Position numbers and translations under genes: made by a program. The notes beneath the pieces were generated by a model. It was given only the letters and a program-made list of their open reading frames with translations, was not told the DNA's origin and ran no database searches. From an uncultured Balneola sp. (GTDB taxonomy: Bacteria > Bacteroidota > Rhodothermia > Balneolales > Balneolaceae): DNA of 32,000 nucleotides. This document shows positions 12,293 to 30,172 of this stretch, piece by piece (position 1 is the first letter of the stretch; each line of letters opens with the position of its first letter). The stretch is from assembly GCA_902529115.1 (NCBI GenBank), contig CABZVB010000003.1:111680-143679 (forward strand). The letters run 5' to 3'.

Positions 12293-12418
12293 TGAAATCA
12301 TGAAATCCCATTGGGTGCATACATAACCTGAGTGCCTTTACATAGTCTATAGTGTGGATAAGTAGATAAAAAATGACACTTTGTGAGATTTATTCTCGTC
12401 TAAGTATCTAAACATCAA

Positions 12419-12426
12419 TAATTTTG
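12419..12426 (+). promoter_or_regulatory. Candidate -7 promoter box (TAATTTTG) for the 12568-17845 cluster
   Basis: Exact TAnnTTTG match in the 275-nt intergenic region upstream of 12568. There is no convincing -33 element, so this is motif evidence only. Confidence 0.25.
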
Positions 12427-12567
12427 AAGATTATTGTCATTAAATCAATATTCTACTTATTTTAGTCTAATATGTGGAAAACTCGAAAAATTTTCGCATA
12501 CTTAGCAATGCAGATATCATCATCTATACTTAGGCTTAAATAAATTACCTTCTGCGGGGGTTAAATC

Positions 12568-14502
12568 ATGGCAGGATACTTTAAATTTCTTGCTCTTACG
12601 GGCATTATTGCGCTTCAGAGTATTATTGTAACAGGGCAAATTGTGCCTGCACAGACTTTGTCTGCAGATGCCCAAGAAGAAACTGCTAAATATGAACGTT
12701 ATTATGAAATAATTTTAGATAATGCACTCTCAGATTATTATCGAGAAGGTACATTCATTGTAGATGTTAAGGCAACACTGGAGCGAATTTTAATCCCTAA
12801 AGGATATGAAGTTATACAGCCACAAGAAGACATTAAAATTGAAAATTTACCAGGATTACCTTTCATCCCACCAAATATACAAAAGAATAGGTCATCTAGT
12901 CAGGATAGTTTAAAAGCTTCAGGGTTTGATGCTCGCTTCCAGCTAACTAGACTCAATATAAAAGTACTCGTCGATACTTCTTACAGTGATGAGGATGTAG
13001 ATTTTGTGGAAGAAGCCGTTATATTGATTGCAAATGCCGATGAATTTCGTGGAGACATCATATCAGTTAGCAAAAAGGTATTTCCGCGCAACAACCGAGC
13101 CATTGCACAAGATATTAAAAAACCTACTGCACCAAATCCCGCGGCGTTGCTAGATAGAAACAATGAAATTAGTGATATTGAAGAAGAGCAAGAAGAGGAT
13201 AATGAAAGAGAAGAGGTTATCGAGAATAGTATGTTCCCACTTTCGCCAGACACAATAATACAAACAGTAGTTGCAGAAAGAGAAAAAAAGATGTTTTTAG
13301 GAATTGATTGGAATAATCCTGAGCAACTAATATTTATAATTATTGCATTAGGAATCTTATTCTTATTGGCATTATTTATGGCAATTTCCAGAAAAACCAA
13401 AGCCAAAGATGAAGAACAAATTATGCAGGATATGGGACAAACTACACCTGTATTACAAAATCCTCAAACTATCAACACAGAAGTAAAAACACCAGAACCT
13501 CAAACGGGGCCTACCGTAAGAGAAATGGCAAAATTCGAAGGAGACAAAACCTTCATTGCAAATATGTGTATTAGTAAACCAAAAATCGTTGCAGATATAA
13601 TAAGCGAATGGATTGAAAATGATGAAGAACAGGGTGTATCGAAGGCGGTAAAAAGCCTTATAAGTGTAGATGACAAGCTGTTGACTATTTTAAAGCCTCA
13701 TATAAGTTCCAATACTTTTGAGATGATTAATTTTGGTATTAATAATTTTGACGCCCTCACATTGGAAGAAAGGATAAGTGAAACAGAAAATTTCCGAAGC
13801 AGTATTACGACTTATAAAGCGTCTACAGATGCTGAAGGATCGCAAAACAGCCTATTCGACTTTGTAGATCAGTTGACGGATCAACAAATTCTGCACTTAA
13901 TGAAAGATGAGTCTGAGGAAATGATTTCAATCTTATTAGCACAGGTTGCGGGTGAAAGAGCTGGAGTTGTTTTACAAAAAATGGATGATGATAAGCGTAT
14001 ATCAGTCCTTCTCAAGATGGGCAAAATTAACAATATACCCATCTCAGTTTATAAAAAAGTTGCTTCTCATTTTTCTAACAAAGCATTAGAAATCTCTGAC
14101 ATGAAATATGTTGCAGCAGATGGTGTAGAAACTATATTAAATACAATTGAAACTATGCCACTATCTGAACAAGATGCATATGTTGCTTCAATTGCAGAAC
14201 AAGATTTAGAATTAGCTAAAAAAATTAAAAAGTTTTTTATCGGATTTGATGATTTACCTAAAGTAAAAATTGAATTAATAAAATCAGCACTTGACGAAAT
14301 ACCCTCTGAAACACTTATTTTAGCCCTACGTACTGCTCCTGCAGCAGTTCGAGAGAAAGTTTTAAAATCTCGAACCAAACGAGATCAACAACTCATACTC
14401 AGTGAAATAGAAATGCCTTCTGAAGCAACTAATTCAGAAGTTGAAGATGCCCAAAAAACTATTCTTTACGCAGTACGTCGAAAAATGAAAACAGAAGCAT
14501 AG
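12568..14502 (+). CDS. Bitopic/biTM membrane protein: N-terminal hydrophobic segment, ~225-aa periplasmic domain, TM helix, then a ~320-aa FliG-like cytoplasmic module (FliF-FliG-fusion-like architecture)
   Basis: aa 5-25 is hydrophobic and aa 254-273 (LIFIIIALGILFLLALFMAI) is a TM helix followed by SRKTKAK. aa 428-644 is colinear with the FliG middle and C domains: FDFV..L.DQQIL, ISILLAQVAGERAGVVLQKM, DGVETILNTI, EQDLELAKKIKKFFIGFDDL, LILALRTA, and SEVEDAQKTILYAVRRKM at the C-terminus. The periplasmic stretch LNIKVLVDTSY..VDFVEEAVILIAN..FRGDIISVSKKVF resembles the C-terminal ring-building motif of FliF/YscJ (RGDxxxV....F). Confidence 0.65.
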   Translation: MAGYFKFLALTGIIALQSIIVTGQIVPAQTLSADAQEETAKYERYYEIILDNALSDYYREGTFIVDVKATLERILIPKGYEVIQPQEDIKIENLPGLPFIPPNIQKNRSSSQDSLKASGFDARFQLTRLNIKVLVDTSYSDEDVDFVEEAVILIANADEFRGDIISVSKKVFPRNNRAIAQDIKKPTAPNPAALLDRNNEISDIEEEQEEDNEREEVIENSMFPLSPDTIIQTVVAEREKKMFLGIDWNNPEQLIFIIIALGILFLLALFMAISRKTKAKDEEQIMQDMGQTTPVLQNPQTINTEVKTPEPQTGPTVREMAKFEGDKTFIANMCISKPKIVADIISEWIENDEEQGVSKAVKSLISVDDKLLTILKPHISSNTFEMINFGINNFDALTLEERISETENFRSSITTYKASTDAEGSQNSLFDFVDQLTDQQILHLMKDESEEMISILLAQVAGERAGVVLQKMDDDKRISVLLKMGKINNIPISVYKKVASHFSNKALEISDMKYVAADGVETILNTIETMPLSEQDAYVASIAEQDLELAKKIKKFFIGFDDLPKVKIELIKSALDEIPSETLILALRTAPAAVREKVLKSRTKRDQQLILSEIEMPSEATNSEVEDAQKTILYAVRRKMKTEA

Positions 14503-14505
14503 ATA

Positions 14506-15702
14506 ATGAAAAAATTATTCATTCTACTTATCGTTTTCATTCTTGTAGTTCTGACTAATTCTTACTATGTCTCTGCTCAAATTTTTAATCATGAACAAGG
14601 TGATCCATACATGATTGAAAAAATCCAAGAACAGTTAAATCCAAATTTAGCTGATTTCCCTGCTACAGTGCGTCGTATAGCTATTTATAAAATAAATTAT
14701 TCAGCACTTAGATTCACAAATGAAGAAGTAGAATACATACGTGCAGAGATCGAATATTCTATGCGCAATTATGCTGGGCTTACTGTATTATCACCTCCAG
14801 AATTAGAACCAAACGATAAACTTAAGATTGTAGGGAACGATTCTACTCTACAAATTCTAAATATGCAAGGACGTTCCCTAGCAGATGTATCCCCAGAGAT
14901 GCTAGAAGAAATTGCCTATAAATACGGTGTCCAAGGTCTTGTTGAGTTAAGTTTACAACGAAGGGAACCTGAAGGACTAGTTATTAGTATCCGTGTAATG
15001 AATCCTCAATCACGCGAAGTAGTTTGGAGTAATTCGTTTATTTCAAACCCTCCAATAGTTTTACCTACTTTAAATCAAGGAACACAAAAACTAGTTACTT
15101 TTGGCATTAGTACTAAATCCTCTGATAGTTGGTACCGGAATAAATACGCAACATCCACAACAAGTAACGACACTACTGGTGCTGGTGCTGGTGCTGGTGC
15201 TGGTGCTGGTGCTGGTGCTGGCACTGATTCCACAGCGAACTCATTCTCACATCAAGCTGATACTCTGTTAAGACAACCTCTTACTGATTTCAGTGTAACA
15301 TTTACCTACAGACAGCCTTTAGATTTAGAAAATAGTTCTTATATTGGTTTTAGTGCTGGTTATCACATAGTTAGATCTCGAGATAGAGAACAAACATTAT
15401 TCGATATTTCACTATTCGAATTGGGATTAATCTATTATCAAGCTATATCAGAAAAAGTCCCAGATATAGACGAATATCGTGTAGTATTCTATTCCAAATT
15501 AAATACGCAATTCCCTCTTGGAAACAAAGAAGGTGAAATGTTTGTGTTAGAACCTGGACTGCAATTTAATTTAAGTAAAAATATTGGATTGTCTGTTTTT
15601 GGTAATCTCATGCTTGCTGGCGAAACTATAAAATTAGCAAACAAAGACCGTTTAACTTATAAACAAACTGGATTTGGATTTCATGCAGTTATTCGATTCT
15701 AA
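14506..15702 (+). CDS. Outer-membrane protein: signal peptide, periplasmic alpha/beta domain, low-complexity Thr/Ser/(Gly-Ala)7 linker, C-terminal beta-barrel
   Basis: Signal peptide MKKLFILLIVFILVVLTNSYYVSA|Q. The C-terminal third has alternating hydrophobic strands and ends in ...GFGFHAVIRF, an OMP beta-signal with terminal Phe. There is a 3-nt gap from the upstream gene. Confidence 0.6.
   Translation: MKKLFILLIVFILVVLTNSYYVSAQIFNHEQGDPYMIEKIQEQLNPNLADFPATVRRIAIYKINYSALRFTNEEVEYIRAEIEYSMRNYAGLTVLSPPELEPNDKLKIVGNDSTLQILNMQGRSLADVSPEMLEEIAYKYGVQGLVELSLQRREPEGLVISIRVMNPQSREVVWSNSFISNPPIVLPTLNQGTQKLVTFGISTKSSDSWYRNKYATSTTSNDTTGAGAGAGAGAGAGAGTDSTANSFSHQADTLLRQPLTDFSVTFTYRQPLDLENSSYIGFSAGYHIVRSRDREQTLFDISLFELGLIYYQAISEKVPDIDEYRVVFYSKLNTQFPLGNKEGEMFVLEPGLQFNLSKNIGLSVFGNLMLAGETIKLANKDRLTYKQTGFGFHAVIRF
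15178..15222 (+). repeat. In-frame hexanucleotide microsatellite (GGTGCT)x7 + GGC encoding (Gly-Ala)7-Gly
   Basis: Read directly from the sequence. Seven perfect GGTGCT units lie in frame with the 14506 ORF. Confidence 0.95.
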
Positions 15703-15715
15703 TAGCCTATTTTTC

Positions 15716-16324
15716 ATGAGAAAAGAATTCACAATAATAATTGTGCTTTTTATCGTTATGCATATTGGATGTGCAACACCGCAGTCTATATCAAATAGTT
15801 CAAATAGTCAGCCTACAAATCCGAATTCAAGAGCACTATCAAATTCACCTCGTATAACCAATTCTACTGATTCAGATAATTCACCTTCCAAAGAGGTTAT
15901 TACTGTTAATTATTTAAATGAAAGTTCAAATATTCAGATTAAACTAGACCCGTCCAAAGAGCAGTTTTATTTAGATTTAAGAGGCATGCGACCAGTCGAT
16001 AAAGATTCCATCATAGTAATCGATTCTAGTCTTGTACAAAATAGAGCTAGGGATATACAGTCTCTACTTACTAACTTTCGAAAAGCTCAAGATTTATTCT
16101 ATTTGGGAGAATATCGGCAGTCATTAGAATTTGTTGACAAAACCCTTGAGATACAAGAGACCGCAGACGCCTACGCCCTAAAAGGAACTGTTTTTTTTAT
16201 GCTAGAAAATATTACGGCAGCCCGCGCTAATTGGAATCGAGCAGTCCAAATGGATCCAAATATTCCAATTCCTAGTATCCCTGAATTAGAAACTTTAATA
16301 CAAGAGATCCGTGGAGGACAGTAA
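15716..16324 (+). CDS. TPR-repeat lipoprotein (ATG at 15716 preferred; the ORF-track start at 15674 is a TTG overlapping the upstream gene)
   Basis: MRKEFTIIIVLFIVMHIGC is a lipoprotein signal with lipobox Cys, followed by a Ser/Asn/Pro-rich linker. The C-terminal part is TPR-like (AQDLFYLGEYRQSLEFVDKTLEI...AYALKGTVFFMLENITAARANWNRAVQMDPN). Confidence 0.65.
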   Translation: MRKEFTIIIVLFIVMHIGCATPQSISNSSNSQPTNPNSRALSNSPRITNSTDSDNSPSKEVITVNYLNESSNIQIKLDPSKEQFYLDLRGMRPVDKDSIIVIDSSLVQNRARDIQSLLTNFRKAQDLFYLGEYRQSLEFVDKTLEIQETADAYALKGTVFFMLENITAARANWNRAVQMDPNIPIPSIPELETLIQEIRGGQ

Positions 16325-16327
16325 CAG

Positions 16328-17146
16328 ATGAAATTTTCAATTGGTTCAATGATCGGTACAGTCATTAGTTTAGCAATGATAATTTTTGGTGTATTGGAGA
16401 CAATCAAAAGAACGACATTTACTGATGGCATTAACACCCAATTTATGAATATACCTAGTATGGTCATTGTTGTAGGTGGGGTTCTTATGGCCTCTTATAT
16501 AACGTTTCAATCAAGGTACGTAAACAAAGCTTTAGCTGGGGTGAGATATTTTTTTAGTCAAGCAGGTGCAAACAAAAAATCTCTCCAAAAAGACTTTGAA
16601 TCAATTGTTGAATGGAATGACGAAATCAGAAAAGATAGAGTTAATGCATTAGATAGATTAGAAGAAGAACGAGGTGGGTACTTAGAAGGATATCTTTTTT
16701 CTCTTTTAAGTACCAATTATTCAAGTGACGACATTCGTCAATTCGGGACTAATCATATCCAAGAAAACTTTTTTAGGCAAATGGTTGTTGTTGATGTTCT
16801 TCGTGCGATGGGTGGAGCAGCTCCTGCCTTTGGTATGTTTGGTACATTATTTGGGCTAATTGATATGCTAAGTAATTTGGACGACCCTTCTGCCATGGGG
16901 CCTGGACTCGCAGCTGCTTTAATGACTACATTATATGGAATTATACTCTCGCGTTTCATTTTTTATCCTGTTGCTGAAAAAATTAAAAATTCAGCCTCTA
17001 TAAATCGTTTCCGAGAGACTTTCATGCTCGAAGGAATCATCTTAATTAATGAGAAGAAAACAGCATTTTATGTTCAGGATAAACTTAGCACTTTTTTACA
17101 GCGTGACTTCAAGAAGAAAGATGGTAAAGGTAAAGATAAAGACTAA
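16328..17146 (+). CDS. MotA/PomA-family ion-channel stator subunit (4 TM)
   Basis: TM1 is at aa 7-23 and TM2 at 42-60, followed by a ~100-aa cytoplasmic loop. TM3/TM4 contain GGAAPAFGMFGTLFGLIDML and GPGLAAALMTTLYGIILSRFIFYPVAEKI, the MotA_ExbB core with both conserved prolines. There is a 3-nt gap from the upstream gene. Confidence 0.85.
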   Translation: MKFSIGSMIGTVISLAMIIFGVLETIKRTTFTDGINTQFMNIPSMVIVVGGVLMASYITFQSRYVNKALAGVRYFFSQAGANKKSLQKDFESIVEWNDEIRKDRVNALDRLEEERGGYLEGYLFSLLSTNYSSDDIRQFGTNHIQENFFRQMVVVDVLRAMGGAAPAFGMFGTLFGLIDMLSNLDDPSAMGPGLAAALMTTLYGIILSRFIFYPVAEKIKNSASINRFRETFMLEGIILINEKKTAFYVQDKLSTFLQRDFKKKDGKGKDKD

Positions 17147-17182
17147 ATATCCTTGTAGGATAACAATTTAAATAAGTTTGTT

Positions 17183-17845
17183 ATGAGTGCTAATGAAATT
17201 GAAGAAGCAGAAGAAGATCTTGAATATCTTCTTACATACAGTGATATGATCACTTTGCTGCTTGCATTTTTTGCCATTCTAATTGCTTCAAGTACCCCTG
17301 ATCAAGCTCTTTGGGACCAAATGAAAGAAGGTATGCGATCAGAAGTAACAGGTACTGAAATACAAAAAACACCATTAGCAGAAATTAAAGCTGATCTTGA
17401 TTCTGTCTTAACTCCTGAACGTAATCAAGGCTTAGTTAACATTGATTTGACTACCAAAGAAATTGTGATGACATTTAATAGTAGTTCACTTTATATCTCA
17501 GGTGGTGCTGAACTATTACCCTCAGGTGAGGGTATTATTCGTAAAGTATCTGACGCTCTAAATGGATTATCATTCTACAATTTTAAAGTAGATATCGAAG
17601 GGCATACAGATAATGTTCCCATAAATACTCTAAGATTCCCTTCTAACTGGGAACTTTCTGTTGCTAGAGCCTCTGAAGTAGTTAAATTTCTAGTTAACCA
17701 AGGATACAAAGCTTCCAATCTCAAAGCATCAGGATATGCAGATACACAACCCTTACCTACTGCACCCCATACTGACGAATTTGGACAAGATATCGTAGAA
17801 AATCGCGCAAAAAATAGACGAATCGTACTTCGAATTTTTTATTAA
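17183..17845 (+). CDS. MotB/PomB-family stator subunit with OmpA-like peptidoglycan-binding domain
   Basis: LLTYSDMITLLLAFFAILI is the MotB TM helix with the conserved protonatable Asp. The C-terminus GHTDNVPI...SNWELSVARASEVVKFL...NRAKNRRIVLRI is OmpA_C-like. Confidence 0.85.
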   Translation: MSANEIEEAEEDLEYLLTYSDMITLLLAFFAILIASSTPDQALWDQMKEGMRSEVTGTEIQKTPLAEIKADLDSVLTPERNQGLVNIDLTTKEIVMTFNSSSLYISGGAELLPSGEGIIRKVSDALNGLSFYNFKVDIEGHTDNVPINTLRFPSNWELSVARASEVVKFLVNQGYKASNLKASGYADTQPLPTAPHTDEFGQDIVENRAKNRRIVLRIFY

Positions 17846-17861: not shown

Positions 17862-18578
17862 ATGTGTGGACGATACACTCTTTTTAGTGATTTTAATACC
17901 ATAGACGCACTAATTGGATCTTCACAACCAAACGAAACAGAAGGGATTTTTAAAAAAGAGTGTCTACAAGAAACCGGCCACACATTACCTTCTTATAATA
18001 TAGCACCCAGCCATGTTGTTCCGGTTATTCTTACAATTAACACCAGTACCAACCAATTAATTCGGATTCTTATGCACTGGGGATTTATGGGTTGGAAACC
18101 GAAGGCAGGAAGTCGGCCCCTATTACCCATTAATACCCGATCCGAAGAGATACTAGAAAAATCTATGTGGCGATCAGTATCTATGCAGCGATGCCTTATT
18201 CCTATGAATGGATTTTATGAATGGTCAGGTGCAAAAGGAAATAAAACCCCCCACTATATACAAGCATCCAATAACTCTATTCTTTTTGCAGCTGGTTTTT
18301 ATTCTCCCTTAAGTCCCTTGGGTTCCTATTATTCGTTTTCCATTTTAACCACAAAATCCAATACAACCATGCAAGACATTCATGATCGGATGCCAGTTTT
18401 TTTAGATCCATCTGAATGGGGTACATGGTTGAATCCAAAACAAGATTTTAATAGTTTAAATTATCTATTGGATCCTTACCCCGACGATAGCCTTAAGAGT
18501 CACATCGTTTCTACTGCTGTTGGGAACGTACGTAACAACAGCCCCCATCTTATCCAACCCGAGTTACGTTTATTCTAA
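17862..18578 (+). CDS. SOS-response-associated peptidase (SRAP/YedK/HMCES family), abasic-site DNA-protein crosslinking enzyme
   Basis: N-terminal MCGRY (catalytic Cys2), PMNGFYEW and IHDRMPVFL motifs. 238 aa. Confidence 0.85.
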   Translation: MCGRYTLFSDFNTIDALIGSSQPNETEGIFKKECLQETGHTLPSYNIAPSHVVPVILTINTSTNQLIRILMHWGFMGWKPKAGSRPLLPINTRSEEILEKSMWRSVSMQRCLIPMNGFYEWSGAKGNKTPHYIQASNNSILFAAGFYSPLSPLGSYYSFSILTTKSNTTMQDIHDRMPVFLDPSEWGTWLNPKQDFNSLNYLLDPYPDDSLKSHIVSTAVGNVRNNSPHLIQPELRLF

Positions 18579-18598
18579 TAGTACTCTTTGGCTCGCTT

Positions 18599-19240
18599 TT
18601 AAGGTGCAGGCCGATGAAATAAGAACTGCTCATCTACTTCTTGTATAAAGCGCCAATCTCCTTGATCCAGTATATATACTACATGATAGAACCGGCGCTC
18701 GGTATCCTCAACAATATAATGTAAGTGCCGAGTAACCATAACATCTTCTAAATGACGCGTTTCTATGCTATGGATTTGATAAGAACTATTTTTCCCTTTT
18801 AAAAAACGATACGGATGCATACGGTCTATTTTGGCATGTTCAATAGAACTCTGCCGTGCACATTGAGCATAAGGAAGCCACTCAAAACGAATAGGGCGTA
18901 TACGGTGAGCCAGCGAAGGCTGGTGTTTGTGTCGCTGCTGATGTACCAATACCCGATCAATAACTAGACGCGATTCATCCTCGCTATGTATAGATGAATC
19001 GAATCCAGGAAGTGCTACTATGTCCCAGAGTAATTCATCGTGATTAAATCGTACATCCATAGTTTCTCCATGTTGAGTTGTAATACTAAAAAATGAATAC
19101 GGTACTCCTCCCAGCATCTTAGTATGACAGGACTTGATCTGACGCACCTTCCGCACATAACGATGCCTCCAATCAAAGGTATGCGCCTCTGAATAGCGGG
19201 GGAAAAAAGTGAGCATTTCTATAAGTGGAAAGTTATTCAT
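18599..19240 (-). CDS. Hypothetical His/Arg-rich protein (ATG at 19240 preferred over TTG at 19246), divergent from the Y-family polymerase gene
   Basis: Long ORF with no family I recognise. About 18 His in ~213 aa by my count. No TM segment, P-loop, HTH or S24 peptidase motif was seen. Confidence 0.6.
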   Translation of the reverse strand: MNNFPLIEMLTFFPRYSEAHTFDWRHRYVRKVRQIKSCHTKMLGGVPYSFFSITTQHGETMDVRFNHDELLWDIVALPGFDSSIHSEDESRLVIDRVLVHQQRHKHQPSLAHRIRPIRFEWLPYAQCARQSSIEHAKIDRMHPYRFLKGKNSSYQIHSIETRHLEDVMVTRHLHYIVEDTERRFYHVVYILDQGDWRFIQEVDEQFLFHRPAP

Positions 19241-19261
19241 GACCAATTTTTATTTGGTCAT
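19239..19261. promoter_or_regulatory. Inverted repeat ATGACCAA-N7-TTGGTCAT in the divergent promoter region (candidate operator)
   Basis: Perfect 8-bp arms read from the sequence. The left arm overlaps the ATG of the - strand gene. The repeat lies ~47 nt upstream of the polymerase ATG. Confidence 0.4.
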
Positions 19262-19307
19262 TTTAAATTACGCACATATATTGTACATATCAATAGCAAT
19301 ATAGTTT

Positions 19308-20651
19308 ATGCCTAAAAAAAATGACTTTTCTTATCAAGCCGAGCAAGATGTGCATCGTATTACCCTCTACAATACGGTGTATCCAGAACACCAATATCGC
19401 CATCGTAAAGACCGCTTATACCTGCATTTTGACTTTGCCTGCTTTTACGCACAAGTAGAGCAACTCCGAAAGAACATGTATGGAGTTCCTCTGATTGTAG
19501 GTGGATGGAGAAAAGAAAATGGAACTGTTAAAGGTATTGTAGCCACCTCTTCTTATGAAGCACGTTCTATGGGTATTAAGACAGGAATGAGTGCCTATGA
19601 GGCCTATAAGCGCTGCCCTTATGTTTGCATGCTTCAAGTAGACTATGCTAGTTATACCGCTATATCAACGCAGGTACATCATATCATGAATCGATATTCA
19701 CATCAAATAGAGCGCTACTCAATGGATGAGTATTTCATGGACGCAAGTTTCCTTTTAGCTAAAGAAGAGCTTCAAATCCGGACATTTGCTCAACAACTGC
19801 AGCGCGATATCGTGGAAACCACAGGACTATATGGATCTGTTGGAATAGCTCGATCCAAAACCTATGCTAAGCTAGCCAGCGGCTTAAATAAACCTCAAGG
19901 TATTTCTCTTGTTCTGAGCAATGAAGATGAACGAATGTATATACACCCATTACCGCTTAACGAAGTTTGGGGTGTAGGCCGCAGGCGTTATGAGCATCTC
20001 CTGGCCGAAGGGTATCAGCGCATACGAGATGTGGTCAAACACAATGACGCCAACACCTTTATACGTTTATTTGGGCCACATTTTGGGCGTATGCTTTTTG
20101 AAACGATTACTGGGCAGGACCAAGGCCGAATACTCGAAGAAAATCATGAATATTCACCTAAGTGGGGTGTTAGTTATGGCCATACCTTTTCCGAAGGAAG
20201 CACCGACCCAGAAGCCATCAAAGGTGAACTAGCTATTGGAATCGAAATGATCTGCTACCGAATGCGGGCCTATGGTATTCGTTCGAGTAGCTTTGGAGGG
20301 CATATCGGATTTGATAAAAATAACTATCCTAACATAGGATTTCGCTTTGTCACTCCTAGTTTTACGCATATTACCAAATATGTGTATGACGAATGTATGA
20401 AAGAATTAGCTGAACTCATTGAATCCTTCTGCCACCGAAAAATAGCTATTCGTAGTCTAACTATAAGCACTCAAAACATGGACAAAACTAGCCAAATGAA
20501 TCTTTTTTTCCGGGATGAAGCCGAACATGTCCAGCGCTATCAGGCCATTGATCGAATTAATAATCGGTACGGAAAAGGTACCGTTCAGACCGCTAGAAGT
20601 CTTTACAGAGTACAGGGAAATACTCACTTCTTAGAACGTAACTCTGGGTAA
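19308..20651 (+). CDS. Y-family DNA polymerase (DinB/UmuC-like), catalytic residues intact
   Basis: LHFDFACFYAQVE aligns with Dpo4 VDFDYFYAQVE, with the catalytic Asp kept. YSMDEYFMD keeps the catalytic Asp-Glu pair. SSYEARSMGIKTGMSAYEAYKRCP and SVGIARSKTYAKLAS are present. The C-terminus IDRINNRYGKGTV is UmuC-like. Confidence 0.85.
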   Translation: MPKKNDFSYQAEQDVHRITLYNTVYPEHQYRHRKDRLYLHFDFACFYAQVEQLRKNMYGVPLIVGGWRKENGTVKGIVATSSYEARSMGIKTGMSAYEAYKRCPYVCMLQVDYASYTAISTQVHHIMNRYSHQIERYSMDEYFMDASFLLAKEELQIRTFAQQLQRDIVETTGLYGSVGIARSKTYAKLASGLNKPQGISLVLSNEDERMYIHPLPLNEVWGVGRRRYEHLLAEGYQRIRDVVKHNDANTFIRLFGPHFGRMLFETITGQDQGRILEENHEYSPKWGVSYGHTFSEGSTDPEAIKGELAIGIEMICYRMRAYGIRSSSFGGHIGFDKNNYPNIGFRFVTPSFTHITKYVYDECMKELAELIESFCHRKIAIRSLTISTQNMDKTSQMNLFFRDEAEHVQRYQAIDRINNRYGKGTVQTARSLYRVQGNTHFLERNSG

Positions 20652-23134: not shown

Positions 23135-24445
23135 TTATTCAAAATCAGAGGTTAATTTATACCGAGCAATACGATTATTTCCTTTGTCGGCTACATAAAC
23201 TACTCGGCGAAAATATGCCACACCACTAGGCATATTAAACTGTTTAGGACCTGCCCCTAGCTCACCAAAAGACACCATAATCTGACGTGTTTGATCTTCC
23301 GCTCCTGCTGGTGGGGGGACACCTTCTTGACCATTAGACTGAAACTGGTATAATCGGTGCGTCTCACTATCTACTACAAAAATAAATGCGTCATCATCCC
23401 CACCAAATGCTACATCTTGAGGATTTAGAAATTTATTGGTTTCGTATAAAAACCCACTTGCTTGTGAAGTATCCTGGGCTAGTAGTTGTGAATTTTGTTG
23501 ATAAACCAACCCATCAACCGTCTCTACTACGTCAATCCATAAAACTCGAAACGGTATATCTATGTTGGCTTGTGATTGTGTAATCAAAAAGCTTCGATTA
23601 TCAGTATAGGTATCTCTCTGTGGTGGGGCTACAAAGGTAGCTATTCCGCTCAGGCCTATAGCACTTCTTAAAGAAGGCACGTTTGGGCTAAGGCTCCTGA
23701 TTTGACGCACGTTACGCATCTTATCTGTTTTAATGCCGTTTTCTACTATTCGGTGAAATTCTAACACCGTATTATCTGGCGCCGCAACTTGAGTGGTCTC
23801 ATTGAATGGACCAGTTCTTGTGACATACAAGGTATTATCAGCCAGTATGCTGAGACCAGTGATTTTCACTTTTTCGTAATTGGTCCCACTGCTACGATTT
23901 AAGCGTGAATTTTGAGCCGCAGAAGTACTTAAACTCGCATCATCAAATGGAAAAATAAGAGTATCTACAAATTTTATAGGGCCCGCTCCGTTCATATTCT
24001 TTATTTTTAACACAGCGGGAAGATTCCATGTAATGGAAGGATCAATACTCTCAATAATCGTATCAATCCTAGCTGCTACATACACGTTCAAGAGTCTATC
24101 CTGAGTAACTGCTTCTGCTCCTTCTAATTCTATGGTCACTCGTGGAGATAGATCAGCTCTATCTAGTAAATGAACCCCATTAGCATCAGTTACGTAAACA
24201 AATTCATCAAATCCTACATGTATATCATTAGGAGCGTCGAACCCACCCCAAAATGGTAATACTGGGGCATAACCATCTACATTTTCTAATCGGGGATCAA
24301 TTTTACCTTCGTTAAATATTTCGTCGGTATCTGCATTGTCTTTGGTGTTAAATAGTTCACTACATCCACCTTGAACCATCATCAAAAAGAACAGTAGCAA
24401 AGGTGCTAAAACTCTCATAAAAGGTTGAATTAGTGCTAATTTCAT
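23135..24445 (-). CDS. Lipoprotein with beta-propeller/NHL-like repeats
   Basis: Signal plus lipobox LLFFLMMVQGGC. The C-terminal repeat GVAYFRRVVYVADKGNNRIARYKL is NHL-like. The start overlaps the upstream stop (ATGA). Confidence 0.6.
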   Translation of the reverse strand: MKLALIQPFMRVLAPLLLFFLMMVQGGCSELFNTKDNADTDEIFNEGKIDPRLENVDGYAPVLPFWGGFDAPNDIHVGFDEFVYVTDANGVHLLDRADLSPRVTIELEGAEAVTQDRLLNVYVAARIDTIIESIDPSITWNLPAVLKIKNMNGAGPIKFVDTLIFPFDDASLSTSAAQNSRLNRSSGTNYEKVKITGLSILADNTLYVTRTGPFNETTQVAAPDNTVLEFHRIVENGIKTDKMRNVRQIRSLSPNVPSLRSAIGLSGIATFVAPPQRDTYTDNRSFLITQSQANIDIPFRVLWIDVVETVDGLVYQQNSQLLAQDTSQASGFLYETNKFLNPQDVAFGGDDDAFIFVVDSETHRLYQFQSNGQEGVPPPAGAEDQTRQIMVSFGELGAGPKQFNMPSGVAYFRRVVYVADKGNNRIARYKLTSDFE

Positions 24446-25497
24446 AAACTTACTCTCACTCCTATCCGATGAATTTGCCCCAAACGCTCAAAACGAGTGT
24501 AGGCATAATCAGCTTTCAATATTCTACCGACAAAAGGTACAGACACGCCACCACCAAGACTAGGTATTCTGCGTTCTAATTGTCCAAATTCATAGCCAGT
24601 TCTGAGATGAAATTGATCCATAAAACTGTACTCAGCACCTATGTTTAATTGCTCAGCATTATCAGATGGATTAGTGACTTGAGCCGTAATTGTTACTTTA
24701 TTTTGCTGATTATCAACCAAATCATATGCAGCACCAATATGGAAACGGGTCGGTAACGATGTATTAGTTTCTGGTTCTAATTCTAAAACTCCCTCTAAGG
24801 ACTCTCTTTGAGTAGTACCATCTGGTGCCGCATCCAGACCAAAGTTATTAATCCCTACTCCAAAACGTAGTCCTGTATCTCCTACCCGATAAGCAAAACC
24901 AAAATCTATGGCACCACTTTGGTATTGTATCTCTTCAACTTTTTCTAATAGATACTTAAAGCTAAGACCATAGCTGAATAAATCCGTTACCTTCTGAGCA
25001 ACTGAAAGTCCAGCAGCCATATGGTGGGTTGAAAATATTCTGCCCGTACCAAAGGGTTGAAACTCCGTAGTTTCCACTATGTCACCAGACCCTAAGTACT
25101 GAACAGAAACACCGATTGCATAGCTATTGATACGCTGGATATAACTAAAATAATCTTGCTGAATACCAGCTACATACTCCGTATGACTGACCATAAATTC
25201 TGATCCATTCGTTTCTGCAGATAAAGCAGGATTCCAATATAAACTAGAGCCATCCATTGCATCGGCCATATTGGAATTCCCCATAGCCGCCGAACGGGGA
25301 TCGACTGGAATTTTAGTAAACTGGAAACCTTCCGTGCCTGCTCGGTCTTGCCCAAAGCTTTTTTGAGCTTTTAGCGTAGTGGTAGAGCCAGCTAGGAATA
25401 AAAATAACAATACTATAAACCCAACATATACTAAAATACTGTTTGGTAATATTCGGTTATAGAAAGTACGTTTGATATGCTTTTCTATTGAATTCAT
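24442..25497 (-). CDS. PorV/FadL-like outer-membrane beta-barrel (possible T9SS shuttle paralogue)
   Basis: After the signal peptide, IPVDPRSAAMGNSNMADAMDGSSLYWNPALSA resembles the conserved N-terminal motif of the PorV/LptO family. Alternating beta-strand patterning runs to the C-terminus. At 351 aa it is shorter than canonical PorV. Confidence 0.5.
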   Translation of the reverse strand: MNSIEKHIKRTFYNRILPNSILVYVGFIVLLFLFLAGSTTTLKAQKSFGQDRAGTEGFQFTKIPVDPRSAAMGNSNMADAMDGSSLYWNPALSAETNGSEFMVSHTEYVAGIQQDYFSYIQRINSYAIGVSVQYLGSGDIVETTEFQPFGTGRIFSTHHMAAGLSVAQKVTDLFSYGLSFKYLLEKVEEIQYQSGAIDFGFAYRVGDTGLRFGVGINNFGLDAAPDGTTQRESLEGVLELEPETNTSLPTRFHIGAAYDLVDNQQNKVTITAQVTNPSDNAEQLNIGAEYSFMDQFHLRTGYEFGQLERRIPSLGGGVSVPFVGRILKADYAYTRFERLGQIHRIGVRVSL

Positions 25498-25498
25498 G

Positions 25499-28480: not shown

Positions 28481-28490
28481 AAGCTAGCGT

Positions 28491-30039
28491 TTATTGTTGA
28501 AATCCTAACTGTTGCACGCACATATATTCAATAAATTCCTTCATATTGTTGTTCCCATTTAGCTTGTTTAAATCCATACCAAAGTAAATAAGATTGCCTT
28601 CCGTATTCTTTATGCTTACCCCTTCCATTATGGTGTAGTCTGTAATGAATCCAAGCAAAGTAGTAGTGCGATAATCCGACTCATATAATAAGGTGGAACC
28701 TGATACCGCTTTTAATGGATACCAACCTACCACCCGAGATTCAAATTTTAAGATGGGAGCTTCGGAATCATCTACTGGAATTATTTCAGTTCCAGCGTTA
28801 ATCACAAAACCAGTTTCAATTCCACCTGCCGGGAAATATCCAATAGAATCTACTGGTAAAAAATTGAATATCACATCTTCTTGGGACACTTCCTTCATAG
28901 GAATAGTAACAAACATACTGCCACCGCTTGCGAAAAAAATCGGAAGTGATGTCTAAGGCGTGCACGATATTTCTATCCACATCGTCTGAAACCCAATAAA
29001 TATGATCCCATTTAGCTAAGGTCTTTTTTAGTGTTGGATCTACTACTTTAGGAAATTGATCTGAGAGTTCAATGGTTCCAAGCGCGGGTTGACCGGTATT
29101 TATTAGCCAGATATCCGGGTCAATTTCCAATTCATTTAAATAGCTAATATGCCAATTCATCTCTTCAATAGATGAATTTTTACCTATATCATTTAGCAAT
29201 AATACCTTCGATTTCTGCTGTTTTACAAACCACTGTATCTGATCACGCTCACTGACTGCACCAGCAGCATCAATAGTCCTGACATAGGCTGTATTCAAGG
29301 CACCAACTTCAATTCCATCTACTAAAATTGGATTTCCTTGTCCATCATCAGCGCTACTATAAGAACGTCCAAGATACACTTGACCTGTTTTGATTCCCTC
29401 CGTCTTATTATCAACGGAAACCGAAATAAAAAGCTCTCCATTATTTATGGTATTAAAAGGAATCTCAACCCACCCATTAAGGGTATCATTAAATGCAATT
29501 TGGGTACTTCGGACATTTAGTAGCCCATCCGGATCGTCTATGGTCCATCCGAAACTGACAATCCCAAACATGGTATCAGCAGGGATTTCATTCGGCTTGA
29601 ACATTGCTGAGGGGCTAGAATTTATGATTGGATACTGTAAACTGGCGCCCACGGGATCTTTTGCTCCATCGTTATCTATTGCCCGTACTTTGAATAGCAC
29701 ATCATCTACCGCTTGGCCTTCGGTAATTGGTAAAATGAACGTACTATCAGTCCGCGTTGTGAATGACCAAGCTCCTTCAGACGTATCATTGATTGCATAT
29801 TCAAAGCCTACAATGTAGCCATCTGGATCATTACCCCACCATGATATTCTTATTTGACTTGACAATCTGAACGAATCTTCCCGGTCTATTCCGGCAACAG
29901 TCATGAAGGTACTCGGCGGCTGGTTTTCAATTATATCTCCAGTAATACCTGTCTCACAGGAAGACCCTATTATCCCAAATAGAAACAAAGCAATAAGCTT
30001 AAATGAATTCCGTAGATATGTAGACATAAAAAAATTCAT
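28491..30039 (-). pseudogene. Lipoprotein gene split into two overlapping ORFs (30039-28816 and 28916-28491) by a frameshift at an A7/T7 tract; the intact form would be about 513 aa
   Basis: N-terminal lipobox LFLFGIIGSSC. On the - strand, GAT TTT TTT CGC (..SDFFRKRW..) continues into the downstream frame if one T is removed (..DFFASGGSMFVTIPMKEV..). The downstream frame opens just after a TAG immediately 5' of the tract. Confidence 0.6.
28933..28939. other. A7 (T7 on the coding strand) homopolymer at the frameshift point
   Basis: Read directly: cgAAAAAAAtc at 28931-28941. Confidence 0.95.
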
Positions 30040-30172
30040 AATCGATTGAATCGATGACTTTTGATTGAGTAACCTTTAGAAACTCAAATCTCTATTGATT
30101 GAAAACAGCATTCAAAGAAAAAAGATGAGATGAGAGCTTCCACTCCCACCTCAAAATATGATTTATATAAAA

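What the first reader, a model, noticed from the sequence alone, without database searches (positions are those of the whole stretch)
12568..17845. Five-gene cluster pairing a FliG-like membrane protein with a MotA/MotB stator, an OM barrel and a TPR lipoprotein: candidate non-flagellar rotor-stator machine
Seen in sequence: five co-directional genes have gaps of 3, about 13, 3 and 36 nt, so they probably form one operon.
- A protein with FliF-like topology and a FliG-like cytoplasmic module.
- A signal-peptide protein with a C-terminal beta-barrel ending in Phe.
- A TPR lipoprotein.
- A 4-TM MotA/PomA homologue.
- A MotB homologue with the channel Asp and an OmpA-like domain.

Established knowledge: FliG is the only known partner on which MotA5B2 stators exert torque, and MotAB/FliG normally sit among dozens of fli/flg/flh genes. 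None of those (fliM/N, flgB-K, flhA/B, fliC, fliI) is visible within about 12 kb on either side.

Inference: this is a self-contained envelope-spanning module in which an ion-driven 5:2 motor acts on a membrane-anchored FliG-like ring. That ring would be coupled through its periplasmic domain to OM and periplasmic partners. Such an arrangement differs from the flagellum, GldLM/PorLM, Tol-Pal, ExbBD and Zorya. The TPR lipoprotein is reminiscent of the stator-scaffolding TPR proteins (PflA/PflB type) of some flagellar motors.
Basis: partly seen in the sequence, partly recalled or inferred. Interest (0 to 1): 0.9.

Follow-up and report, generated by a model that had tools for sequence, protein, structure and literature searches.

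The report
Flagellum-free FliF–FliG rotor with stator
A conserved five-gene operon encodes a flagellar-type ion-driven stator next to a single protein that fuses a cut-down flagellar MS-ring protein to the rotor protein FliG, plus two outer-envelope partners. No other flagellar genes lie nearby, so this is probably an undescribed rotary envelope machine built from flagellar motor parts.

Summary
Window 12568-17845 holds five tightly packed co-directional genes.
- A is a 644-aa fusion. It has a signal or transmembrane helix, a periplasmic domain with the FliF RBM3/S-ring fold, a second transmembrane helix, and a full FliG N-M-C module.
- B has a TolB-N/LpoB-like domain followed by an 8-stranded outer-membrane barrel.
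- C is a TPR lipoprotein.
- D and E are a PomA/PomB-type stator with the channel threonines and prolines, the aspartate, the plug and the peptidoglycan-binding core all invariant.

The five components travel together in more than 50 Balneolaceae and Fibrobacterota genomes and in a Gammaproteobacteria MAG. Flanks are unrelated and gene order is sometimes permuted. All five genes are under purifying selection (dN/dS 0.01-0.15). The arginine equivalent to FliG R281 is conserved in all but one lineage examined (Lys in one). The FliM-binding motif is lost.

No flagellar genes lie in the window or in the related loci whose flanking genes were annotated. One host, Gracilimonas tropica, is non-motile, and a comparative genomics paper places it among taxa lacking flagellar assembly genes. 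I found no paper or curated family describing this module.

The most likely reading is that a sodium- or proton-driven 5:2 stator turns a membrane ring of A. The output is unknown. Rotation, ring formation and absence of flagella in this genome are inferred, not shown.

The parts
12293..12567 (+). 275-nt AT-rich intergenic region upstream of gene A, the presumed promoter region of the operon
   Evidence: Sequence. The sigma-70 consensus scan found no more sites than shuffled sequence. Rfam found no riboswitch. Its role as a promoter is inferred only.
12568..14502 (+). Gene A, 644 aa: a natural fusion of a FliF-like (RBM3/collar) part, a transmembrane helix and a FliG-like part. Proposed rotor subunit.
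   Evidence: At least 126 clusters at 50% identity share this long architecture.
12568..12633 (+). A residues 1-22: N-terminal hydrophobic helix. It is either a cleaved signal peptide (ending in a conserved 'AQ') or the equivalent of FliF TM1.
   Evidence: AlphaFold helix 2-21 and alignment A5. Whether it is cleaved was not tested.
12664..13092 (+). A residues 33-175: periplasmic alpha-beta-beta-alpha-beta domain with two 20-residue strands. It has the FliF RBM3/beta-collar-like fold. Invariant motifs are LPGLP (94-98, at the hairpin tip), RGD (161-163) and FP (172-173).
   Evidence: AlphaFold pLDDT is mostly above 90. Foldseek matches FliF S-ring/RBM3 structures 8z5v, 8z4g, 6sd3, 7cg7 and 6sd1 at E 4e-5 to 1e-3. 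Pfam YscJ_FliF_C is hit by 16 of 22 family members, best 4.3e-5.
13117..13293 (+). A residues 184-242: disordered acidic low-complexity linker
   Evidence: pLDDT below 50. Length and sequence vary in the alignment.
13318..13431 (+). A residues 251-288: transmembrane helix (hydrophobic core 262-282)
   Evidence: AlphaFold helix 251-288. 118 of 126 long family members have a hydrophobic window at this position.
13543..14493 (+). A residues 326-642: full-length FliG-like module (N, M and C domains). R605 is equivalent to FliG R281 and E613 to D289. Of the EHPQR FliM-binding motif only E448 remains.
14506..15702 (+). Gene B, 398 aa: signal peptide, a periplasmic alpha/beta domain (residues 33-180, 14602-15045) with a TolB-N/LpoB/PelC-like fold, and an 8-stranded outer-membrane beta-barrel (residues 195-398, 15088-15699) ending in Phe.
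   Evidence: No Pfam or NCBIfam family. All homologues are named 'hypothetical'. AlphaFold pLDDT 72. Foldseek matches 4q6l, 4q6z, 9h80, 4hrv and TolB. Alignment A3.
15176..15221 (+). Perfect (CTGGTG)x7.7 repeat inside B encoding (Ala-Gly)n in a disordered loop of the barrel
   Evidence: The loop has pLDDT below 50. Homologues of 392, 394 and 398 aa exist.
15716..16324 (+). Gene C, 202 aa from the ATG at 15716: lipoprotein (Cys codon at 15770) with a linker, a small conserved domain and C-terminal TPR repeats
   Evidence: TPR_1 and TPR_2 above cut-off. The signal peptide plus Cys is conserved across the family. The TPR region is homologous to the C-terminal part of the 966/1218-aa proteins of the distant loci L062 and L063.
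16328..17146 (+). Gene D, 272 aa: flagellar-type MotA/PomA stator A-subunit. T173 and T201 are equivalent to PomA T158 and T186, and P166 and P214 to P151 and P199. R101 is equivalent to PomA R88, D109 to E96 and E112 to E99.
17183..17845 (+). Gene E, 220 aa: MotB/PomB-type stator B-subunit with invariant Asp21 (17243-17245), a plug region and an OmpA-like peptidoglycan-binding domain (residues 106-193)

Best explanation
The operon encodes a self-contained, flagellum-independent rotor-stator machine made from flagellar motor parts.

D and E assemble into a PomA5PomB2-type ion channel. The channel residues suggest sodium coupling. It is anchored to peptidoglycan through E's OmpA-like domain.

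Its cytoplasmic loops engage the FliG-like C-terminal domain of A. The contact is at least the charge pair between the FliG R281 equivalent and the acidic residues equivalent to MotA E98.

A oligomerises through its FliF RBM3-like periplasmic domain into an inner-membrane ring. Rotor (FliG) and ring (FliF) are one polypeptide, so the ratio is fixed at 1:1. The ring has no RBM1/RBM2, so it has no housing for a type III export gate, and it has no FliM-binding motif, so it has no switch complex.

Ion flow through D/E would turn this ring. The periplasmic collar, tipped by the invariant LPGLP loop, would pass the motion to the outer-envelope partners or run against them. Those partners are B (an outer-membrane barrel with an under-membrane alpha/beta domain) and C (a TPR lipoprotein).

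Shown here: the homologies, the folds, the conserved functional residues, operon conservation and purifying selection.

Inferred: ring formation, rotation, the ion used, and the roles of B and C. The physiological output is unknown. It could be surface movement, an envelope process or fibre rotation.
For: Rotor:
- FliG_M and FliG_C score above Pfam cut-offs, and the alignment to Salmonella FliG is full length.
- Foldseek's top hits are full-length FliG (3e-11), followed by FliF S-ring/RBM3 structures for the periplasmic domain.
- 16 of 22 family members hit YscJ_FliF_C.

Stator:
- D aligns end to end with PomA (1.3e-28), while TolQ and ExbB score only 6e-4 and 6e-3.
- The equivalents of PomA T158, T186, P151 and P199 and of PomB D24 are invariant in about 50-60 sequences. 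PMC6677748 shows that these threonines and the aspartate are needed for Na+ conduction.

Interface:
- The FliG R281 equivalent is Arg in every lineage (Lys once). An acidic residue sits at or next to the PomA E96/E97/E99 positions in most lineages.
- The second pair (FliG D289 with PomA R88) is present in Balneolaceae and lost on both sides in Fibrobacteria.

Linkage:
- The order A-B-C-D-E is kept in every locus not cut by a contig end, across Balneolaceae and Fibrobacterota.
- The same components occur in other orders in L066 (a Gammaproteobacteria MAG) and L067.
- Flanks differ everywhere and contain no flagellar genes.

Selection: dN/dS is 0.01-0.15 for all five genes.

Hosts: Gracilimonas tropica carries the operon (L027) and is non-motile (PMC4642740). 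PMC9909488 reports that G. tropica, G. amylolytica and the genera Balneola, Fodinibius, Halalkalibaculum and Rhodohalobacter lack flagellar assembly genes.

Precedent: engineered FliF-FliG fusions still form MS-rings (PMC11481574).
Against: - No experiment or multimer model shows that A forms a ring or that D/E contact it.
- A profile HMM of A's N-terminal domain finds no FliF among PDB sequences. That homology rests on fold plus sub-threshold Pfam hits.
- The classical stator-rotor charge set is only partly kept. D288 is Ser, R297 is Thr, and the PomA E96 position is variable in Balneolaceae.
- A ring with no axial rod has no obvious output.
- One locus (L048) has A-B-C without an adjacent MotAB.
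- I could not check whether this genome has a canonical flagellar regulon elsewhere. Balneola vulgaris is reported to be flagellated (PMC5167729).
- Taxon labels come from MAG records.
Confidence: 0.6

Rival explanations
1. The genes are an accessory or second rotor-stator set of a canonical flagellum encoded elsewhere in the genome. In this reading A is an alternative FliG, D/E an alternative stator, and B/C periplasmic scaffolds like the Vibrio H/T-ring or the Campylobacter PflA/PflB and FlgP disks.
For: D and E score best against the flagellar MotP/PomA/MotD/MotS families. B's N-domain has a weak fold match to FlgT (3w1e, E = 0.11). TPR scaffolds are known in some flagellar motors (my own knowledge). 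Balneola vulgaris is reported to be flagellated (PMC5167729), and Aliifodinibius genomes carry many flagellar genes (PMC9909488).
Against: The operon is never next to flagellar genes in any locus whose flanking genes were annotated. It is present in non-motile G. tropica, which is reported to lack flagellar assembly genes. A lacks RBM1/RBM2 and the FliM-binding motif, so it could neither house an export gate nor join a switch complex. All NCBIfam flagellar equivalog cut-offs are missed by a wide margin.
Confidence: 0.12
2. It is a Tol-Pal-like or TonB-like energy transducer rather than a continuously rotating ring. The 5:2 motor would pull on or remodel A, which would relay force to the outer-membrane protein B (TolB-N-like domain) and the TPR lipoprotein C (CpoB-like) for outer-membrane tethering, division or transport.
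For: The five parts parallel the tol-pal operon: a motor pair, an inner-membrane transducer, a TolB-N-like fold in B (TolB hits 1.6e-4 to 1e-3, LpoB 3e-4), a TPR protein and an OmpA-like peptidoglycan binder. PMC12204202 notes that tol-pal loci are not identifiable in Bacteroidetes. In L066 the module sits beside Wza/Wzc/Wzy polysaccharide export genes.
Against: The stator is of the flagellar (PomA) type, with the large cytoplasmic loop used to push FliG, not the TolQ/ExbB type. A has no TolA/TonB-like extended periplasmic domain, but it does have a ring-building fold and a complete FliG. The torque-helix Arg is conserved in all but one lineage, where it is Lys.
Confidence: 0.15
3. It is a decaying remnant of a lost flagellar locus with no present function.
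For: The lineages concerned are mostly non-flagellated relatives of flagellated groups. PMC9909488 proposes gradual loss of flagellar genes in Balneolaceae.
Against: All five ORFs are intact in 50+ genomes from at least three phyla. dN/dS is 0.01-0.15. Catalytic and channel residues are invariant. B and C are not flagellar genes yet always accompany A.
Confidence: 0.03

Closest known systems
Bacterial flagellar motor core: FliF MS-ring, FliG, and the PomAB/MotAB (MotPS-type) stator
   Same: The FliG N-M-C module, the FliF RBM3/collar-like fold, a PomA-like 4-TM subunit with a large cytoplasmic loop, a PomB-like plug, Asp and OmpA-like domain, the FliG R281-equivalent Arg, and A-then-B stator gene order.
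   Different: FliF and FliG are one polypeptide. RBM1/RBM2 are absent, so there is no seat for the export gate, and the FliM-binding EHPQR motif is absent. No fliM/N, flhA/B, fliPQR, fliI, rod, hook or filament genes lie nearby. B and C are dedicated partners unknown in flagella. All NCBIfam flagellar equivalog cut-offs are missed.
Engineered or mutant FliF-FliG fusion proteins (Vibrio FliFG; PMC11481574, bioRxiv 10.1101/2023.02.06.527414)
   Same: A covalent FliF-FliG fusion that still builds an MS-ring/S-ring. This shows that the architecture is mechanically viable.
   Different: Those are laboratory constructs of full-length FliF inside a complete flagellum. Here the fusion is natural, truncated to the RBM3-like part, forms a family of at least 126 clusters at 50% identity, and has its own operon.
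Tol-Pal system (TolQRA-TolB-Pal-CpoB)
   Same: An inner-membrane 5:2 motor plus an envelope-spanning set. That set includes a TolB-N-like fold (B), an OmpA-like peptidoglycan binder (E) and a TPR protein (C).
   Different: The motor is of the flagellar type, not the TolQ type (TIGR02796 E = 6e-4, 19.6 bits against a cut-off of 221). There is no TolA, no beta-propeller and no Pal lipoprotein. The transducer is a FliF/FliG fusion.
Zorya (ZorAB), GldLM/PorLM, ExbBD-TonB and AglRQS, the other known 5:2 motor systems
   Same: They use a MotAB-family ion-driven motor for a non-flagellar task.
   Different: D hits no ZorA model, and only E hits the generic ZorB/MotB models. No GldL/GldM, TonB, ZorC/ZorD or Glt components are present. 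None of those systems uses FliG.

Membership tests
FliG (flagellar rotor/switch protein; Pfam FliG_N/M/C, TIGR00207) | FliG_M and FliG_C domains above the Pfam gathering scores | tested here: met
   FliG_C scores 67.3 bits (cut-off 23.3) and FliG_M 34.5 bits (cut-off 25).
FliG (flagellar rotor/switch protein; Pfam FliG_N/M/C, TIGR00207) | Scores as a FliG equivalog (TIGR00207 at 226.7 bits or more), with FliG_N above its cut-off | tested here: not met
   TIGR00207 scores 90.2 bits and FliG_N 21.9 bits against a cut-off of 25. Even so, phmmer aligns A residues 326-642 to FliG residues 8-318.
FliG (flagellar rotor/switch protein; Pfam FliG_N/M/C, TIGR00207) | A soluble protein of about 330 aa that docks non-covalently on the FliF C-terminus | tested here: not met
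   The FliG module is the C-terminal half of a 644-aa membrane protein.
FliG (flagellar rotor/switch protein; Pfam FliG_N/M/C, TIGR00207) | EHPQR motif (E125 to Q128, plus R160) that binds FliM | tested here: not met
   Only the Glu is kept. The motif reads E-S-E/D-E in Balneolaceae and E-S-x-G in Fibrobacteria. R160 becomes K or A.
FliG (flagellar rotor/switch protein; Pfam FliG_N/M/C, TIGR00207) | Charged torque-helix residues K264, R281, D288, D289 and R297 | tested here: inconclusive
   The R281 equivalent is conserved in all but one lineage (Lys in L064). The D289 equivalent is Glu in Balneolaceae only. D288 is Ser and R297 is Thr. K264 is Arg in this window but variable elsewhere.
FliF (MS-ring protein; Pfam YscJ_FliF, YscJ_FliF_C) | Periplasmic region flanked by two hydrophobic helices | tested here: met
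   Helices 2-21 and 251-288. The first may instead be a cleaved signal peptide, which was not tested.
FliF (MS-ring protein; Pfam YscJ_FliF, YscJ_FliF_C) | RBM3/beta-collar domain | tested here: inconclusive
   The fold matches: about 18 FliF S-ring/RBM3 chains at E 4e-5 to 1e-3. By sequence, YscJ_FliF_C is below its cut-off but is hit by 16 of 22 members, best 4.3e-5. A profile search against PDB sequences finds no FliF.
FliF (MS-ring protein; Pfam YscJ_FliF, YscJ_FliF_C) | RBM1 and RBM2 domains (Pfam YscJ_FliF) that surround the export gate | tested here: not met
   There is no YscJ_FliF hit. Only about 145 structured periplasmic residues are present, forming one alpha-beta-beta-alpha-beta unit.
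Flagellar-type stator MotAB/PomAB/MotPS | A-subunit with 4 TM helices, a large cytoplasmic loop and the conserved TM3/TM4 Pro and Thr residues. B-subunit with the channel Asp, a plug and an OmpA-like domain. Genes adjacent, A before B. | tested here: met
   D aligns with PomA residues 23-243 at 1.3e-28. The equivalents of T158, T186, P151 and P199 are invariant. MotB_plug and OmpA score above cut-off and D21 is invariant.
Flagellar-type stator MotAB/PomAB/MotPS | Reaches an NCBIfam equivalog cut-off for a named flagellar stator protein | tested here: not met
   The best scores are MotP at 133.6 bits (cut-off 394) and MotD at 138.3 bits (cut-off 283).
Flagellar-type stator MotAB/PomAB/MotPS | Works on a flagellum (the genome encodes the export apparatus, rod, hook and filament) | not testable with these tools
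   Only 32 kb of this genome is available, and it holds none of these genes. The literature reports none in G. tropica, which carries the operon (PMC9909488).
Zorya anti-phage system | ZorA-type A-subunit with a long tail, plus ZorC/ZorD or ZorE/F/G | tested here: not met
   PADLOC gives no hit for A, B, C or D. Only E hits the generic ZorB (MotB) models.
Tol-Pal / ExbBD-TonB | TolQ/ExbB-type A-subunit and a TolA/TonB transducer | tested here: not met
   tolQ scores 19.6 bits (cut-off 221) and exbB 16.4 bits (cut-off 206). No TolA/TonB domain is present in the operon.
PflA/PflB-type TPR stator scaffolds | Specific homology to PflA/PflB beyond generic TPR repeats | not tested
   Only generic TPR_1/TPR_2 hits were seen, and PrsT and PilW are the best NCBIfam names. 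No PflA/PflB reference sequence was compared.

The most novel reading that the evidence does not exclude
This is a previously unrecognised, widespread class of rotary envelope machine. It would be a minimal FliF/FliG ring turned by a PomAB-type stator, with no type III secretion system, rod or filament. It is found in non-flagellated Balneolota, Fibrobacterota and some Proteobacteria. Its rotating periplasmic collar would drive an outer-membrane or surface process, such as a new form of surface motility or fibre and envelope movement. It would be either an exaptation of the flagellar motor after loss of the flagellum or a surviving relative of the pre-flagellar rotor.
Probability: 0.4. Interest if true: 0.95.

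Novelty: new variant of a known kind. Interest (0 to 1): 0.85.

Why it matters
FliG is the only known substrate of MotAB-type torque, and the pair is known only inside flagella. A conserved rotor-stator pair that has shed the export apparatus, switch complex and axial structure, and has gained its own outer-membrane partners, would matter in three ways.
1. It would add a new member to the short list of ion-driven rotary machines.
2. It would give a natural minimal system for studying torque generation: one rotor polypeptide at a fixed 1:1 FliF:FliG ratio, and apparently no switching.
3. It bears directly on how the flagellar motor arose or can be repurposed.

It also explains why KEGG-style annotation reports 'incomplete flagellar pathways' (fliG, motA, motB) in non-motile Balneolaceae. 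Cultured hosts exist (Gracilimonas tropica DSM 19535, Balneola sp. EhC07), so the question is directly testable.

Tried and rejected
- The genome-collection scan with the 40-sequence alignment failed because the alignment was too diverse. A closer 12-sequence alignment worked. Because that scan relies on two peptide patterns, the taxon list is a lower bound.
- A second word-indexed protein search with the profile added almost nothing new.
I redid it with database homologues.
- A profile HMM of A's N-terminal domain against PDB sequences gave only noise.
- PADLOC showed this is not Zorya or any listed defence system.
- Rfam on the upstream region returned only chance snoRNA-like matches, with no c-di-GMP or other riboswitch.
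- Sigma-70 promoter and terminator scans were no better than shuffles.
- My reading of the extra genes in the distant loci L062 and L063 as a chaperone-usher-like fibre system rests only on sub-threshold DUF4402 hits. PDB and NCBIfam sequence searches did not confirm it, so it stays a lead.
- Eight literature searches found no description of this module.
- The two '331-aa FliG-sized' hits in the representative search turned out to be fragments on 1.3-1.4 kb contigs, not canonical FliG.

Full report
**1. Observation**

Window 12568-17845 holds five + strand ORFs.

| Gene | Coordinates | Length |
|---|---|---|
| A | 12568-14502 | 644 aa |
| B | 14506-15702 | 398 aa |
| C | 15716-16324 | 202 aa |
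| D | 16328-17146 | 272 aa |
| E | 17183-17845 | 220 aa |

For C, the mechanical ORF starts at a TTG at 15674. The ATG at 15716 gives a signal peptide plus a lipobox Cys.

The other 20 ORFs of at least 120 aa scanned against Pfam in the window are the following.
- Upstream: rpsB, tsf, pyrH, frr, smc, methylmalonyl-CoA mutase with MeaB, a PAS protein and sufE.
- Downstream: an SRAP protein, a Y-family polymerase-like protein, cdaA, folP and a type IX secretion-related set.

No flagellar gene is present. There are no tRNA genes.

**2. What the five proteins are**

*Protein A*
- FliG_C (1.7e-18) and FliG_M (2.5e-8) score above the Pfam cut-offs. FliG_N (2.7e-4) is just below.
- TIGR00207 fliG scores 90 bits against a cut-off of 227.
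- phmmer aligns A residues 326-642 with residues 8-318 of Salmonella FliG at 2e-18.
- AlphaFold2 on a 40-sequence family alignment gave mean pLDDT 82. The model has these parts in order:
  - an N-terminal hydrophobic helix (2-21);
  - a periplasmic alpha-beta-beta-alpha-beta unit (H33-55, E63-82, E115-135, H141-154, E164-169);
  - a disordered acidic linker (184-242);
  - a transmembrane helix (251-288);
  - a short disordered stretch;
  - an all-helical FliG-like region (317-643).
- Foldseek against the PDB ranks full-length FliG first (3e-11). It then gives a block of about 18 FliF S-ring/RBM3-collar chains for the periplasmic unit, including 8z5v, 8z4g, 6sd3, 7cg7 and 6sd1 (E 4e-5 to 1e-3, target TM-score about 0.5).
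- Sequence support for the FliF part is weaker but consistent. Pfam YscJ_FliF_C is hit by 16 of 22 family members scanned one by one (best 4.3e-5), and every other family is hit by a single member. A profile search against PDB sequences found nothing.
- A is therefore a natural fusion of a FliF reduced to its RBM3-like part with a complete FliG.
- The periplasmic domain carries family-invariant motifs: LPGLP at the tip of the long hairpin, RGD, and FP.

*Protein D*
- It belongs to the flagellar stator type, not the TolQ/ExbB type.
- It aligns with PomA over residues 33-258 (1.3e-28). Its best NCBIfam names are MotP, PomA and MotA. TolQ and ExbB reach only 6e-4 and 6e-3.

*Protein E*
- It has MotB_plug and OmpA domains.
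- It has an invariant Asp21 and an invariant peptidoglycan-binding core in 52 sequences.

*Protein C*
- It has TPR_1/TPR_2 repeats.
- It has a signal peptide plus Cys conserved throughout the family.

*Protein B*
- It has no Pfam or NCBIfam family, and all its homologues are 'hypothetical'.
- AlphaFold (pLDDT 72) shows a signal peptide, an alpha/beta domain (33-180) and eight strands ending in Phe398. A disordered Ala-Gly-rich loop lies between strands 1 and 2.
- Foldseek matches the N-domain to the LpoB C-domain (3e-4, TM-score 0.59), the TolB N-domain, PelC and GNA1162. It matches FlgT only weakly (0.11). The rest matches outer-membrane barrels.

**3. Is it a unit, and how widespread is it?**

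- A search of 1.84 billion representative proteins gave 2606 hits, 107 of them below 1e-30.
- Of the best 150 clusters at 50% identity, 126 are at least 550 aa long, and 118 of those have an internal hydrophobic helix.
- The two FliG-sized hits among them are fragments on 1.3-1.4 kb contigs. Canonical FliG is therefore more distant than all of these.
- A scan of one genome per species returned 58 loci:
  - about 40 from Balneolaceae, Balneola or Gracilimonas, including the cultured G. tropica DSM 19535 and Balneola sp. EhC07;
  - about 17 Fibrobacteria MAGs;
  - one MAG labelled Chitinophagales.
- tblastn and ORF calling show A-B-C-D-E in that order, with overlapping or near-abutting genes, in every locus not cut by a contig end. 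This includes Fibrobacteria, where A is only 28-33% identical.
- Flanking genes differ between lineages and are housekeeping genes.
- More distant members (20-26% identity) keep the components but not always the order (B and C homology was checked with profiles):
  - L061, L064 and L065 have A-B-C-MotA(-MotB).
  - L066, from a Gammaproteobacteria MAG, has MotA-MotB-B-C-A.
  - L067 has a 409-aa gene, then C, A, MotA and MotB.
- L048 has A-B-C with no adjacent stator.
- L060 has A between TPR genes at a contig end.
- All five genes are under purifying selection. dN/dS is 0.01-0.15 against three relatives with unsaturated dS.

**4. Functional residues**

- *Stator channel.* The equivalents of PomA T158, T186, P151 and P199 are invariant in every D homologue examined, including the distant ones. 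PMC6677748 shows that T158, T186 and PomB D24 are essential for Na+ binding and conduction. Sodium coupling is a reasonable inference here, not a result.
- *Rotor.* On the FliG torque helix, the R281 equivalent (R605) is Arg in all lineages, and Lys in one.
- *Stator partner of that Arg.* Its known partner region on the stator (MotA E98, PomA E96/E97/E99) carries an acidic residue in most lineages.
- *Second charge pair.* The pair FliG D289 with MotA R90/PomA R88 is present in Balneolaceae (Glu, with Lys or Arg). It is absent on both sides in Fibrobacteria (Gly, with Gln). This pattern fits a co-evolving interface. It represents only one or two evolutionary events and depends on loop alignments.
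- *FliM-binding motif.* The EHPQR motif is not kept. This matches the absence of fliM/fliN nearby and argues against a switch complex.

**5. Hosts**

- G. tropica, which carries the operon (L027), is described as non-motile (PMC4642740).
- Gracilimonas species are mostly non-motile (PMC12162075).
- PMC9909488 reports that G. tropica, G. amylolytica and the genera Balneola, Fodinibius, Halalkalibaculum and Rhodohalobacter lack flagellar assembly genes. Only the Aliifodinibius group has an incomplete set, listed in its supplement.
- Balneola vulgaris was reported to be flagellated (PMC5167729).
- I could not test the rest of the present genome.

**6. Most likely mechanism**

- D5E2 forms a peptidoglycan-anchored ion channel.
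- Its cytoplasmic loops push on the FliG_C domains of a ring of A, held together by the RBM3-like periplasmic domains.
- The ring has no export gate and no switch, so it would be a plain rotor, probably unidirectional.
- The invariant LPGLP tip of the collar is the best candidate contact for the outer partners.
- B, with its under-membrane TolB-N/LpoB/PelC-like domain and small barrel, and C, a TPR lipoprotein, could be either a bushing or stator scaffold, or the driven load.
- I put 0.6 on 'a stator-driven ring of A'. The output is unknown.

Rivals:

| Rival | Confidence |
|---|---|
| Accessory set of a canonical flagellum | 0.12 |
| Tol-Pal-like force transducer | 0.15 |
| Decaying relic | 0.03 |

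**7. Comparison with known systems**

- The closest system is the flagellar MS-ring, FliG and PomAB core.
- It fails membership as FliG, FliF or a named stator on curated cut-offs and on several defining features: the fusion, the missing RBM1/RBM2, and the missing FliM motif.
- Engineered FliF-FliG fusions form rings (PMC11481574), so the fused design is viable.
- It is not Zorya, Tol-Pal or ExbBD, or GldLM (no hits).
- The recent phylogeny of MotAB and its non-flagellar relatives (PMC12505986) does not mention Bacteroidota, Balneolaceae or any FliG-like partner outside flagella.
- None of the eight literature searches found this module.

**8. Verdict**

The finding is real, conserved and undescribed in the sources I could search. 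It reuses known flagellar parts in a new architecture, so I rate it a new variant of a known kind. There is a substantial chance (about 0.4) that it is a new kind of rotary envelope machine. Interest is 0.85.

Noticed in passing
window 15176-15221 (inside gene B): A perfect hexanucleotide repeat, (CTGGTG)x7.7, encodes an (Ala-Gly)n run in the disordered loop between barrel strands 1 and 2. Near-identical relatives have B proteins of 392, 394 and 398 aa. This suggests in-frame length variation in a loop that is probably surface-exposed.
   Followed up: partly
L062 3420-13781 and L063 576-12999: Distant A-family members (about 22% identity) sit with MotA/MotB in a larger gene set. The set has several secreted 180-230-aa proteins with sub-threshold DUF4402 hits, a conserved 281-aa protein, and a 966/1218-aa protein whose C-terminal TPR region is homologous to window protein C. 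The 1218-aa protein also has an OmpA domain. L062 starts with a Por_Secre_tail protein. A fibre or usher-like reading was not confirmed.
   Followed up: partly
L066 5191-18819 (Gammaproteobacteria MAG): The module appears in permuted order (Sel1/SPOR protein, MotA, MotB, B-like, TPR, A). It is followed by a BBP2_2 barrel and Wza, Wzc and Wzy polysaccharide export genes. This is a possible functional hint or a coincidence.
   Followed up: no
L062 10001-12265: This A-like protein has a C-terminal extension (residues 676-743) similar to the TPR region of window protein C. The extension follows the cytoplasmic FliG_C domain, so its topology is unclear.
   Followed up: no
window 23135-31990, - strand: An NHL-repeat protein, a PorV-like barrel, a CarboxypepD_reg TonB-dependent receptor-like protein and a protein with a Por_Secre_tail sorting domain. 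The host therefore has a type IX secretion system, consistent with the Balneolaceae/FCB assignment.
   Followed up: no
window 17862-20651: An SRAP protein, a 215-aa ORF with no Pfam family (18599-19246, - strand) and a Y-family polymerase-like IMS protein lie directly downstream of gene E, starting only 16 nt after its stop. This neighbourhood is not conserved in relatives, so it is probably unrelated to the module.
   Followed up: no
window 13117-13293 (A residues 184-242): A long acidic low-complexity linker (runs of E, D and N) joins the periplasmic domain to the transmembrane helix. Its length varies across the family. At about 60 residues it is much longer than needed to reach the membrane.
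   Followed up: no
L048 7854-11643 (MAG labelled Chitinophagales): A, B and C are present but are followed by a MarR regulator and a TonB-dependent receptor instead of MotA/MotB. The stator may be encoded elsewhere in that genome or be absent.
   Followed up: partly
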